Assembly: GCF_965641715.1 (NCBI RefSeq)
Contig: NZ_OZ282455.1
Direction: 5' to 3' (one strand)
Origin: Escherichia coli
GTDB lineage: Bacteria; Pseudomonadota; Gammaproteobacteria; Enterobacterales; Enterobacteriaceae
DNA length: 64,000 nt
Positions 16,639 through 18,469 of the stretch are shown here, in pieces; position 1 is the stretch's first letter; each line of letters begins with the position of its first letter. Under the pieces are notes generated by a model. That model was not told the origin of the DNA. It worked only from the letters and a program-made list of their open reading frames with translations, and made no database searches. Position numbers and translations under genes: made by a program.

Positions 16639-17241
16639 TTATTGCCCAGAAATATTCTCCTGCTGTGCCTGCATCCTGAGCCACTTTTGTTCTAATGTCG
16701 CCAGTCTGCGACCGGCACTCTGTGCTTCAGAGTCTGAGACCTGCCCTTTGGGGTGACCATCCAGGCCATAACGTGGGACGCCGGCGACAGCTGTCCGCTG
16801 CAGATATACGCGGCGGGATGTGATGCAGGACACTGCACAGAGCCATTCGTCCATGGTCAGTTCTGTCTCCGGGTGTTCTGCCAGAAATGCCGAAATATCA
16901 TTGTTTATGCCAATTTTCAGGGGAATAAATCCACCACCTTCAGCACGAAGATGAGGAAACAGGGCCTTTATTTTTTCCACGCACTCGTGAGTATACTCAC
17001 GGGTCCAGTGGGAGGGACGTGGAAAACGGTGTCTTTTCTTTTTCTTCTTCCTGGCTGGCGCTTCGGGGATATGTGTTTCGACGGCAGATGAATTTATTCC
17101 GGCGGGGGCTGATTCTGCCGTCTGTTCAGTAAATACAGGTGCGATAATATCTGTTTTTTCGGATAAGGACGGTGGCGAAAAAGTACGACGTTTTTTCACC
17201 ACAATGACGGGAGTTTTCCTTTCTTCCTGATATTTTCCCAT
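16639..17241 (-). CDS. FinO/ProQ-domain RNA-binding protein (FopA-like)
   Basis: C-terminal ...CITSRRVYLQRTAVAGVPRYGLDGH...EAQSAGRRL... aligns by eye with FinO ...[23 protein letters not shown]...; basic N-terminus. Confidence 0.5.
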   Translation of the reverse strand: MGKYQEERKTPVIVVKKRRTFSPPSLSEKTDIIAPVFTEQTAESAPAGINSSAVETHIPEAPARKKKKKRHRFPRPSHWTREYTHECVEKIKALFPHLRAEGGGFIPLKIGINNDISAFLAEHPETELTMDEWLCAVSCITSRRVYLQRTAVAGVPRYGLDGHPKGQVSDSEAQSAGRRLATLEQKWLRMQAQQENISGQ

Positions 17242-17416
17242 AAATACCTCGGCTATGTTGTTCTACTTCCTTATAATATCATAGTTCAAAATTTAATAAA
17301 CTTTCTGTTATGTAATATCCCTTGATAATTTACGAAGATGACTCTGTACCCTGCTATGTGAATCAGGAACGTTTATAGCAGGATACAACGGATTGTTACT
17401 TACACAGTAAGATTTA

Positions 17417-18469
17417 CTAAGGTTTGTTTTCTTCTTTTCTTATATTTATCTGGTAATCCTTATCAACAATGCCTGCTCTACTGTTTGCATTAATCATTGC
17501 TGGTCTGATCCATATTAGTTTGTTATTTTTCCTGCGAATATGTCCTCTGCGTAAGTGCATCCTTTTCGTCCCACCGGATTTTCCTGTTCCAGTATGATTA
17601 CTTTGCACCTTAGTTTCAGACAGTTGCAATACTTTATAAGTATATGAAGGGCGCTTGTTTTTTTCAGGTGGCTGAACTTTACGACCATTTATGAATTTTC
17701 TTTCTGGTTTAGTGCTAAGTGTGACAGGACACACATTTTCGCAATTTAACACGCTACATGCCTGTATGAAAGCCTGTAGTTCATCGCGAGTATCCATAAT
17801 AATTTGCGTATATAATCTTTCAATACTTCCCACCTGCTTTATCAAATCATCTTTAAATTCCATGCTTGTTATAAAAGGCTCTGCTTTGAAGTGTGCTGCA
17901 TTATATTTGGCTACTCCATTCTCTTTTAATGTGTCGATTACAAGCCTTGATGCAGGCAATGTCCTGTCAGGTTCGTATTTAGTGAGTTTGTTGTTATATG
18001 GGAAAAACATTCCACCGACACCAAGAATCCATATTTTTAAATCATCAGACCATGAAACAGGAAGGATAAACACTCCGCCATCAATATAAGTGTTAAGGAT
18101 TGAATTACATCCCGGGATGGGTTCAAAACTCTGTCTGGCCTCCCAGCACAGGGCAATTCTTCTGGATGATGGTGATATATTAAAATCACCTATTTGGGTT
18201 TCTACATTGTCTTTGAACCATGGTATTTCAAATGTTACAACTGGATATGGTAATCGTGCCAAATCGAAATGTGTCTGGCGGTATTCTTCTGGTTCAATAA
18301 TATCGCAGCAGTTCGGTAAGATGAACTTAACACTACTGTCCAGCATATCAATGACCTGACGCATAATATATGATGTAAGAGGTGCATTTGACCTTAATCC
18401 TTTTTCCATGACAGACAGGTCTTTTATGGCTTCCTTAGTGTAATTTAGTGGAGTAATTGTATCTTTCAT
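17417..18469 (-). CDS. hypothetical protein (AT-rich orphan, basic C-terminal tail)
   Basis: 350-aa ORF in markedly AT-rich segment; no domain recognised. Confidence 0.4.
   Translation of the reverse strand: MKDTITPLNYTKEAIKDLSVMEKGLRSNAPLTSYIMRQVIDMLDSSVKFILPNCCDIIEPEEYRQTHFDLARLPYPVVTFEIPWFKDNVETQIGDFNISPSSRRIALCWEARQSFEPIPGCNSILNTYIDGGVFILPVSWSDDLKIWILGVGGMFFPYNNKLTKYEPDRTLPASRLVIDTLKENGVAKYNAAHFKAEPFITSMEFKDDLIKQVGSIERLYTQIIMDTRDELQAFIQACSVLNCENVCPVTLSTKPERKFINGRKVQPPEKNKRPSYTYKVLQLSETKVQSNHTGTGKSGGTKRMHLRRGHIRRKNNKLIWIRPAMINANSRAGIVDKDYQINIRKEENKP

What the first reader, a model, noticed from the sequence alone, without database searches (positions are those of the whole stretch)
16639..18469. 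AT-rich segment with a FinO-domain protein and a 350-aa orphan gene next to the resistance-island junction
Base composition between roughly 16.1 and 18.5 kb is visibly AT-rich compared with flanking DNA. 16639-17241 encodes a FinO/ProQ-like C-terminal domain and may act on the replication-control antisense RNA, like FopA. 17417-18469 has no recognisable domain and ends in a highly basic tail.
Basis: partly seen in the sequence, partly recalled or inferred. Interest (0 to 1): 0.45.

Follow-up and report, generated by a model that had tools for sequence, protein, structure and literature searches.

The report
FopA gene plus unannotated AcrVA2/FinQ-like gene
On this IncI1 resistance plasmid, the FinO-domain gene is the already characterised RNA chaperone FopA, and the neighbouring 350-aa "orphan" belongs to a large conserved protein family that is distantly related to the anti-CRISPR AcrVA2 and the fertility inhibitor FinQ, so it is probably a weapon against a rival element or a host defence.

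Summary
Both ORFs exist at the stated coordinates on the minus strand of an IncI1 plasmid backbone. A Tn1721/TnAs1-type transposon end abuts the backbone at 16129/16130.

- **16639-17241:** this is FopA (YafB). It is 198/200 identical to the characterised pCol1B9 protein, scores 47.9 bits on PF04352, and keeps Y146 and R157. FopA binds the Inc antisense RNA and speeds its pairing with the repZ leader. This part is already known.
- **17417-18469:** this is not an orphan. It lies in a 1.38-kb AT-rich cassette (17304-18681) that replaces yagA, colicin Ib and its immunity gene of ColIb-P9-type plasmids. It is intact in 227 plasmids and has 1,912 cluster representatives at E<=1e-3.
- **Reading:** a distant, unannotated AcrVA2/FinQ-superfamily member with an unknown target. 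It is not canonical finQ.
- **AT-richness:** real overall (0.40 against 0.52) but uneven; fopA itself is 0.50.

Interest is moderate to low.

The parts
46..1077 (+). repZ (annotated repA), the replication initiator. Its mRNA leader is the target of Inc RNA and FopA. The leader and the Inc gene lie upstream, outside the window.
   Evidence: Window 1-1921 matches pCol1B9 410-2330 at 98.2%, and pCol1B9 repA is at 455-1486. In the closest plasmid, p931IncI1, the 460-bp leader is 98.9% identical to that of pCol1B9.
16092..16622 (-). yafA-like small membrane protein gene (backbone). Its 3' end is replaced by transposon sequence.
   Evidence: 154/160 identical to the 164-aa protein of p931IncI1, diverging over the last ~12 residues. 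GC 0.377.
16129..16130 (.). Junction between the resistance island (Tn1721/TnAs1-type end carrying tnpA, tnpR and a PAS-MCP gene) and the IncI1 backbone.
   Evidence: Backbone homology starts at 16129. Island matches end at 16129/16130.
16639..17241 (-). fopA (yafB), encoding a FinO-domain RNA chaperone of 200 aa, 22.5 kDa, pI 9.5.
   Evidence: PF04352 47.9 bits, residues 84-186. 198/200 identical to pCol1B9_SL1344 FopA. Y146 and R157 are present (PMC7491321).
17273..17281 (-). Candidate fopA promoter, an extended -10 (TGaTATTAT), inside the 62 bp upstream of fopA that are still shared with pCol1B9. The GAGG Shine-Dalgarno is at 17247-17250.
   Evidence: Read from the sequence and from the alignment with pCol1B9. 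This is an inference. The consensus scan did not list it.
17304..18681 (.). AT-rich variable cassette occupying the slot that holds yagA, cib, imm and a DUF6404 gene in pCol1B9/ColIb-P9.
   Evidence: Homology with pCol1B9 stops at 17303-17305 and resumes at 18682-18695. The cassette is present at >=95% identity in 135 of 5,426 complete E. coli genomes, with 139 of 143 places on plasmids.
17345..17387 (-). Stable hairpin 3' of the 350-aa ORF (14 bp, no U tract). It may be a transcript-end or stabiliser structure.
   Evidence: Inverted repeat I2. RNA fold -21.4 kcal/mol, z -2.75.
17417..18469 (-). Gene for a 350-aa (40.2 kDa) AcrVA2/FinQ-superfamily-like protein, with an acidic body (residues 1-250) and a basic C-terminal module.
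17534..17563 (-). Codons for R303-M-H305-L-R307-R-G-H310-I-R312, the conserved RxHxRRGH motif.
   Evidence: H305, R307 and H310 are invariant in 73 homologues. They have the same spacing as AcrVA2 H286/R288/H291, whose alanine mutants lose activity. hhalign aligns these columns.
17489..17512 (-). Codons for W320-I-R-P-A-M-I-N327. This corresponds to W-x-P-x-x-[VI]-N of AcrVA2/FinQ (RWQPAVFVN, IWLPPVPVN).
   Evidence: Alignments.
18532..18655 (.). Two exact 14-nt direct repeats (GAAATACTCAGCCA), 110 bp apart, in the 5' flank of the 350-aa gene. One overlaps a terminator-like hairpin at 18540-18560.
   Evidence: Their significance is unknown.

Best explanation
The interval holds two unrelated plasmid functions that sit side by side.

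(1) fopA belongs to the IncI1 backbone. FopA is a FinO-domain RNA chaperone. It binds and protects the Inc antisense RNA and speeds its pairing with the repZ mRNA leader, which lowers RepZ synthesis and plasmid copy number.

(2) Upstream, in the same orientation, lies a 1.38-kb AT-rich cassette. It has replaced the yagA, colicin Ib and immunity block found in ColIb-P9-type plasmids. It encodes a 350-aa protein that is a distant member of the AcrVA2/FinQ superfamily. The protein has an acidic, lineage-specific N-terminal and central body, inferred to recognise the target. This is followed by a basic C-terminal beta-module carrying the superfamily's R-x-H-x-R-R-G-H ... W-x-x-P-x-x-I-N signature, inferred to be the effector.

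[quoted passage not shown] The protein binds a specific protein, probably as a nascent chain, of a competing conjugative element or a host defence system, and brings about loss of that protein's mRNA. This would favour the IncI1 plasmid.

Shown here: gene identities, conservation, the cassette swap, the motif identity and the weak fold match. Inferred: the mode of action, the division of labour between domains, and the class of target. The target itself is unknown.
For: FopA:
- PF04352 above the gathering cut-off.
- 198/200 identity to the characterised protein.
- Y146, R157 and 22.5 kDa as published (PMC7491321; PMC9977716).
- repZ is in the window, and the leader is conserved in the closest plasmid.

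350-aa protein:
- Full-length copies in 227 plasmids, and 29-46% identical full-length homologues on Xanthomonas, Burkholderia, Paraburkholderia and Variovorax plasmids.
- 1,912 representatives at E<=1e-3.
- Precomputed PF26125 'AcrVA2-like' on the 99%-identical P0001 and on many relatives, flagged weak on P0006.
- Invariant H305/R307/H310 match the essential AcrVA2 H286/R288/H291.
- hhalign against AcrVA2+FinQ profiles gives E 3e-5 locally and E 2e-6 in a colinear global alignment. That alignment also pairs the >=90%-conserved C243 with the invariant Cys that ends the long helix of AcrVA2/FinQ.
- The C-terminal third is the most conserved part of the family, and many distant hits match best over residues ~215-341.
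- Homologues sit in conjugative-element settings: inside an ICE T4SS operon, and next to relaxase, orphan methyltransferase and H-NS genes.
Against: - The sequence link to AcrVA2/FinQ is short: ~35 columns, hhalign probability 73-77%, HMM scores of 10-16 bits.
- A profile search of PDB sequences finds nothing, and Foldseek finds nothing.
- The protein and its motif variant are absent from the stored part of the published AcrVA2 orthologue table.
- No target, no phenotype and no expression data are available.
- The AcrVA2 mechanism rests on a preprint, and its degradation step is unresolved.
- The Inc RNA gene, FopA's main ligand, is not inside the window.
Confidence: 0.6

Rival explanations
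1. The 350-aa protein is functionally unrelated to AcrVA2/FinQ. Its basic C-terminal tail is a generic nucleic-acid-binding segment, for example of a plasmid-borne regulator or a nucleoid-associated 'stealth' factor, and the motif match is superficial.
Against: The matched residues are the family's only invariant His/Arg positions, and they coincide in spacing with the functionally essential AcrVA2 residues. A second downstream motif (W..P..[VI]N) and the helix-terminal Cys are colinear. AcrVA2 is the single best PDB fold match. Independent precomputed Pfam hits point the same way. No DNA-binding domain was detected.
Confidence: 0.2
2. The 350-aa gene is an anti-phage or abortive-infection defence gene, part of the defence-like cluster that follows it on the plasmid.
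For: Neighbouring genes include a DUF3800 protein, an AbiJ-like protein (PADLOC 5.5e-8) and a DUF2971-type protein. The cassette is AT-rich and variable, like defence cargo.
Against: No PADLOC, PHROG or phage-genome match for the protein. Its homologues sit with transfer and establishment genes rather than in defence islands. Its only detectable relatives are counter-defence or fertility-inhibition proteins.
Confidence: 0.1
3. The 350-aa gene and fopA form one functional module, with an RNA chaperone and an mRNA-destruction factor acting together on replication control or on a common RNA.
For: They share orientation and are only 175 bp apart. No canonical terminator lies between them, only a hairpin without a U tract. 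Both products relate to RNA fate.
Against: In pCol1B9 and ColIb-P9, fopA works with yagA-cib in that slot instead. About 1,395 plasmids encode FopA at >=90% identity, against 227 with the intact 350-aa gene. No FinO-domain gene adjoins the distant homologues. fopA keeps its own conserved upstream 62 bp with an extended -10.
Confidence: 0.05
4. The 350-aa ORF is a non-coding or decaying remnant.
For: Some copies are disrupted: a 361-aa fusion after an insertion and a 290-aa internal deletion, and partial matches.
Against: Full-length conservation from 99% down to ~25% identity across proteobacterial classes. Invariant residues. A confident fold prediction.
Confidence: 0.01

Closest known systems
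FopA (YafB) of Salmonella Typhimurium SL1344 plasmid pCol1B9 (IncI1), a FinO/ProQ-family RNA chaperone
   Same: The window protein 16639-17241 is 198/200 identical. It has the same length and mass, the same FinO domain with Y146 and R157, the same N-terminal extension with two basic stretches, and the same yafA-fopA backbone position near repZ.
   Different: There are two substitutions in the N-terminal extension (N4Y, L23P). The DNA more than 62 bp upstream of the start differs, because the neighbouring slot carries another cassette. The Inc gene is outside the window.
AcrVA2 (Moraxella bovoculi prophage anti-CRISPR; PDB 7CI1/7CI2; Pfam PF26125)
FinQ (fertility inhibitor of IncI1 plasmids such as R820a and R62; lowers F tra operon mRNA)
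   Same: It is also carried by IncI1 plasmids as optional cargo. It belongs to the same superfamily signature (KRPHIRRGHWH...IWLPPVPVN in modern FinQ). It is similar in size (363 aa) and has a similar order of secondary-structure elements.

Membership tests
FinO/ProQ family (PF04352) | Match to the ProQ/FinO domain profile above the curated cut-off | tested here: met
   47.9 bits against a cut-off of 27, E 1.4e-12, residues 84-186 matching profile positions 4-102 of 109.
FinO/ProQ family (PF04352) | Conserved RNA-binding Tyr and Arg of the FinO domain (FopA Y146, R157) | tested here: met
   Y146 and R157 are present. The positions are as stated in PMC7491321.
FopA orthologue | Near-identity to the characterised pCol1B9 FopA, including its specific N-terminal extension | tested here: met
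   198/200 identical with no gaps.
FopA orthologue | IncI1 backbone position (yafA-fopA near repZ) | tested here: met
   Window 16129-17303 matches pCol1B9 5203-6377 at 98%. repZ is at 46-1077.
FopA orthologue | Presence of the cognate ligand pair, Inc antisense RNA and the repZ leader | tested here: inconclusive
   The window starts 45 nt before repZ, so the leader and Inc gene are not included. In the closest plasmid the leader is 98.9% identical to that of pCol1B9.
FopA orthologue | Binds Inc RNA and accelerates Inc-repZ pairing | not testable with these tools
   Biochemistry was done for the 99%-identical protein only (PMC7491321).
AcrVA2/FinQ superfamily (Pfam PF26125 AcrVA2-like) | Match to the PF26125 profile | tested here: inconclusive
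   Precomputed PF26125 hits are recorded for the 99%-identical P0001 and for many relatives, marked 'weak' for P0006. The local Pfam copy lacks the model: AcrVA2 and FinQ themselves return no family. No score against the curated cut-off could therefore be obtained.
AcrVA2/FinQ superfamily (Pfam PF26125 AcrVA2-like) | C-terminal H-x-R-x-x-H motif (AcrVA2 H286, R288, H291, required for activity) | tested here: met
   H305, R307 and H310 are invariant in 73 homologues. hhalign aligns them to the AcrVA2/FinQ motif. The mutagenesis data are in the preprint.
AcrVA2/FinQ superfamily (Pfam PF26125 AcrVA2-like) | Downstream W-x-P-x-x-[VI]-N strand motif | tested here: met
   W320-I-R-P-A-M-I-N327 against RWQPAVFVN (AcrVA2) and IWLPPVPVN (FinQ). 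The Pro is shifted by one position in this family.
AcrVA2/FinQ superfamily (Pfam PF26125 AcrVA2-like) | Overall fold like the AcrVA2 crystal structure | tested here: inconclusive
AcrVA2/FinQ superfamily (Pfam PF26125 AcrVA2-like) | Carried on mobile genetic elements | tested here: met
   229 of 260 matching plasmid records are conjugative. A homologue lies in an ICE T4SS operon. Others lie next to relaxase and mob genes.
AcrVA2/FinQ superfamily (Pfam PF26125 AcrVA2-like) | Binds a target polypeptide and causes translation-dependent loss of its mRNA | not testable with these tools
   Needs expression, pull-down and RNA measurements.
Canonical FinQ | Sequence orthology to FinQ of R820a and modern IncI1 finQ | tested here: not met
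   The A1 profile scores -1.1 bits on FinQ R820a. tblastn with the window protein does not recover finQ plasmids, and the reverse also holds.
Canonical FinQ | Location in the trbA-pndC region | tested here: not met
   The gene is next to fopA. The window's trbA-excA interval holds sok/pnd but no finQ. The literature location is given.
Canonical FinQ | Inhibits F-plasmid transfer | not testable with these tools
   Requires a mating assay.

The most novel reading that the evidence does not exclude
The 350-aa protein founds a third, so far unannotated clade of the AcrVA2/FinQ superfamily with its own target. In this reading it is a second, finQ-independent interference factor of IncI1 plasmids. 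It would act by nascent-chain-directed mRNA destruction against a rival plasmid's transfer genes or against an enterobacterial defence system. It could even correspond to a classical but never cloned IncI1 fertility-inhibition determinant such as FinU. FinU is mentioned with FinQ as an IncI1 system that down-regulates F transfer genes (bioRxiv 10.1101/2025.04.21.649884).
Probability: 0.3. Interest if true: 0.6.

Novelty: new member of a known kind. Interest (0 to 1): 0.38.

Why it matters
FopA adds nothing new here; it is the published protein on another IncI1 plasmid.

The 350-aa gene is worth a note. It is annotated 'hypothetical' in every record seen. It is present in about 2.5% of complete E. 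coli genomes (135 of 5,426) and in hundreds of clinically relevant IncI1 resistance plasmids.

Linking it to AcrVA2/FinQ gives a concrete experiment. Make H305A, R307A and H310A mutants, pull down the target, then run mating and RNA assays.

If it works like its relatives, IncI1 plasmids carry two different, swappable members of a nascent-protein-directed mRNA-silencing family. That bears on plasmid-plasmid competition and on how widely this unusual regulatory mechanism is used.

It also shows that the fopA-adjacent slot is a cargo exchange point: colicin Ib in some plasmids, this gene in others.

Tried and rejected
- **Local Pfam and NCBIfam scans of the 350-aa protein.** Only a sub-threshold TVHS-like hit over 23 residues. 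I treated this as noise. The apparent absence of AcrVA2-like hits is uninformative, because neither library holds a model that AcrVA2 or FinQ match.
- **PADLOC and PHROGs.** Nothing for the 350-aa protein. tblastn against 50,697 phage records found no match.
- **PDB sequence-profile search.** No hit at E<=1. Foldseek against PDB gave nothing below E 0.03. The afdb50 library was unavailable.
- **Is it YagA?** No. yagA is a different 448-aa gene on the other strand in pCol1B9 and is unrelated (hhalign probability 1%).
- **Is it canonical FinQ?** No. It differs in locus and sequence. P0003 (361 aa) looked like FinQ by length but is an insertion-truncated fusion of this same gene.
- **Is it listed among the published AcrVA2 orthologues?** It was not found in the stored part of Supplementary Table 2, and that file was cut when stored.
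- **Rfam.** No family in 16-19 kb, and no Inc RNA model hit anywhere in the window.
- **Consensus promoter and terminator scan.** Counts were near shuffle expectation and not informative.
- **Co-occurrence of finQ and this gene.** I checked only one finQ-positive plasmid, which has yagA in the slot. No conclusion can be drawn.
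Full report
**Where this is.** The window is an IncI1 conjugative resistance plasmid. Region 16129-19600 is 99.9% identical to p931IncI1 of Salmonella Typhimurium and about 99% identical to many 80-100-kb IncI1 plasmids of E. coli, Salmonella and Shigella. Window 1-1921 equals pCol1B9_SL1344 410-2330, so repZ lies at 46-1077. A resistance island with a Tn1721/TnAs1-type end (tnpA 11197-13488, tnpR 13492-14052, PAS-MCP gene 14362-15939) abuts the backbone at 16129/16130. That junction replaces the last ~12 residues of the YafA-like membrane protein at 16092-16622.

**The observation.** GC for 16100-18500 is 0.404 against 0.521 for the window, the 5th lowest of 616 overlapping 2.4-kb windows. 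The low GC comes from the yafA-like gene (0.377), the 175-bp spacer (0.32) and the 350-aa gene (0.377). The FinO-domain gene itself is 0.501. The basic tail is real: residues 251-350 have pI 11.1, and residues 1-250 have pI 4.9.

**The 200-aa protein is FopA.** It matches PF04352 at 47.9 bits against a cut-off of 27, over residues 84-186. It is 198/200 identical to the ProQ/FinO-family protein of pCol1B9_SL1344. That protein is the one named FopA (formerly YafB) and characterised by Gerovac et al. (PMC7491321). It is a 22-kDa FinO-domain protein with conserved Y146 and R157, and the window protein has both at those positions. It binds the Inc antisense RNA at about 1 uM, protects it from RNase, and accelerates Inc-repZ pairing about sevenfold. 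A later review summarises the outcome as repression of RepZ synthesis and copy-number control (PMC9977716). The two substitutions (N4Y, L23P) lie in the N-terminal extension. FopA's main ligand cannot be inspected here, because the window begins 45 nt before repZ. In the closest plasmid the 460-bp leader is 98.9% identical to that of pCol1B9. This half of the finding is already known biology.

**The neighbouring slot is variable.** Homology with pCol1B9 runs from 16129 to about 17303 and resumes at about 18682. In between, pCol1B9 and ColIb-P9 carry 4.6 kb holding yagA (plus strand, 448 aa), colicin Ib, its immunity gene and a DUF6404 gene. The window carries a 1,378-bp AT-rich cassette with the 350-aa gene instead. 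So the 350-aa gene is not yagA, and the two proteins are unrelated (hhalign probability 1%). Only 62 bp upstream of fopA are shared. That stretch contains an extended -10 (TGaTATTAT, 17273-17281) and a GAGG ribosome-binding site, which I read as fopA's own promoter (inference). A 14-bp hairpin without a U tract follows the 350-aa ORF. Read-through into fopA therefore cannot be excluded.

**The 350-aa protein is not an orphan.**
- tblastn finds it in 260 plasmid records. In 227 of them the match is full length, mostly at >=99% identity in IncI1 plasmids.
- Full-length homologues of 29-46% identity occur on Xanthomonas, Burkholderia, Paraburkholderia and Variovorax plasmids.
- The cassette is in 135 of 5,426 complete E. 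coli genomes, almost always on plasmids.
- A search of 1.84 billion cluster representatives gives 1,912 hits at E<=1e-3 and 68 at E<=1e-30.
- Every source calls it 'hypothetical'.
- A 73-sequence alignment (A1) has six invariant residues: P52, P74, N245, H305, R307 and H310.
- AlphaFold2 on that alignment gives a confident model (pLDDT 88.6, pTM 0.78). It has N-terminal helices, a central sheet, a long helix at 216-241, a poorly ordered basic linker and a C-terminal beta-meander.

**The link to AcrVA2 and FinQ.** The precomputed annotation attached to homologues, including the 99%-identical P0001, lists PF26125. The context look-up names this 'AcrVA2-like' and marks it weak. My own Pfam scans could not reproduce or reject this, because the local library has no model that AcrVA2 or FinQ themselves match. 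NCBIfam likewise has none.

The preprint on AcrVA2 (10.1101/2022.11.29.518452) reports four relevant points:
- H286A, R288A and H291A abolish this while preserving binding.
- Homologues are widespread on mobile elements that lack Cas12a.
- FinQ, the IncI-plasmid inhibitor of F transfer that lowers tra mRNA, is a homologue with a conserved HxR motif and a similar C-terminal domain.

Using the sequences in its Supplementary Table 3, the window protein's K-R-M-H-L-R-R-G-H-I-R-R...L-I-W-I-R-P-A-M-I-N lines up with AcrVA2 K-R-P-H-I-R-R-G-H-W-H...V-R-W-Q-P-A-V-F-V-N. It also lines up with modern FinQ K-R-P-H-I-R-R-G-H-W-H...L-I-W-L-P-P-V-P-V-N. The three invariant residues of the window family have exactly the spacing of the three essential AcrVA2 residues.

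Profile-profile comparison with AcrVA2+FinQ alignments gives E 3e-5 and probability 73% over 35 C-terminal columns. A colinear global alignment gives E 2e-6. It also pairs the >=90%-conserved C243 with the invariant Cys that closes the long helix in AcrVA2/FinQ.

**How far that link goes.** It is a distant relationship.
- HMM scores across the two groups are only 10-16 bits and are limited to the motif.
- A PDB sequence-profile search and Foldseek both return nothing.
- The window protein is not canonical FinQ. finQ is a 361-363-aa gene inserted between trbA and pndC (PMC2887853, PMC8004404). It is annotated by name in 550 plasmid records.
- The window has no insertion in that interval and no second copy.
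- The motif variant LRRGHIRR does not occur in the stored part of the published orthologue table.

I therefore file the gene as a distant, separate clade of the AcrVA2/FinQ superfamily, with about 0.75 confidence in homology of the C-terminal module.

**How it most likely works.** Within the family, the C-terminal third is the best conserved part: column identity is 0.56 for residues 301-345 and 0.25-0.33 for 111-215. Many remote relatives match best only over residues ~215-341. This fits the domain logic proposed for AcrVA2 and FinQ, with a variable body that recognises the target and a conserved basic module needed for the down-regulation step.

Homologues sit in conjugative-element settings:
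- between T4SS genes of an ICE;
- beside the relaxase and an orphan cytosine methyltransferase on a Xanthomonas plasmid;
- beside H-NS, an orphan methyltransferase and mob genes on Paraburkholderia pEMT1;
- beside H-NS on a Burkholderia plasmid.

My best reading (about 0.45 for the mechanism itself) is an inter-element or anti-defence factor. It would bind a specific protein, probably co-translationally, and cause loss of that protein's mRNA. The target is unknown, and the biochemical step that removes the mRNA is unresolved even for AcrVA2.

Alternatives are listed as rivals: a generic nucleic-acid-binding protein, a defence gene belonging to the adjacent Abi-like cluster, or a functional partner of FopA. 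The last is unlikely. FopA works without this gene in pCol1B9. About 1,395 plasmids encode FopA at >=90% identity, against 227 with the intact 350-aa gene. Distant homologues have no FinO-domain neighbour.

**Verdict.** The FinO-domain gene is the known FopA. The '350-aa orphan' is a conserved, unannotated, distant AcrVA2/FinQ-like gene in a cargo slot that holds colicin Ib in other IncI1 plasmids. Novelty: a new member of a known kind. Interest is moderate to low (0.38). The superfamily's spread on mobile elements is already described, but this clade is unannotated, common in clinical IncI1 plasmids, and now directly testable through its HxRxxH motif.

Noticed in passing
window 18682-19526 (-): An overlapping gene pair (196 aa and 84 aa) with GC 0.646, directly beside the 0.38-GC cassette. 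It is conserved at 88% in pCol1B9. It matches phrog_19460 (E 7.5e-7) and weakly an AbiEi-type wHTH. Its function is unknown.
   Followed up: partly
window 19941-20630 (-): A 229-aa protein with no Pfam hit but a strong match to the phage family phrog_30303 of unknown function (E 2.7e-34).
   Followed up: no
window 20782-23782: A defence-like run of genes: a DUF3800 protein (+), an AbiJ-like protein (PADLOC 5.5e-8; annotated as 'abortive infection family protein' in p931IncI1) and a DUF2971-type protein.
   Followed up: no
window 16092-16130: The transposon end at 16129/16130 fuses new codons onto the YafA-like membrane protein. The last ~12 residues differ from the intact 164-aa version in p931IncI1.
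   Followed up: yes
window 18532-18545 and 18642-18655: An exact 14-nt direct repeat (GAAATACTCAGCCA), 110 bp apart, in the 5' flank of the 350-aa gene. One copy overlaps a terminator-like hairpin at 18540-18560. It may be a trace of how the cassette was acquired. A duplication is also reported around the finQ insertion in PMC8004404.
   Followed up: no
window 56633-56790 (+) and 57415-57502 (-): Rfam sok antitoxin RNA (134 bits) and RF02891 AgrB (55 bits) lie between trbA and excA. This is the interval where canonical finQ inserts in other IncI1 plasmids, and it is empty here.
   Followed up: partly
L013 (NZ_CP022456.1 20000-42000): A finQ-positive IncI1 plasmid carries yagA, not the 350-aa gene, next to fopA. 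The window carries the 350-aa gene and no finQ. This is a single pair of cases, so an either/or pattern is untested.
   Followed up: partly
L010 7287-7616; L011 5677-5988: H-NS family genes lie immediately next to the 350-aa homologues on Burkholderia ambifaria and Paraburkholderia hospita plasmids.
   Followed up: no
window 24250-25000: A very GC-rich stretch (0.69-0.72) with several overlapping long ORFs on both strands, in contrast to 0.42-0.55 around it.
   Followed up: no
P0003 and P0002 (homologues of 17417-18469): Damaged alleles of the 350-aa gene circulate. One is a 361-aa fusion that diverges after residue ~273, which removes the HxRxxH module. The other is a 290-aa allele with an internal 60-residue deletion.
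   Followed up: partly
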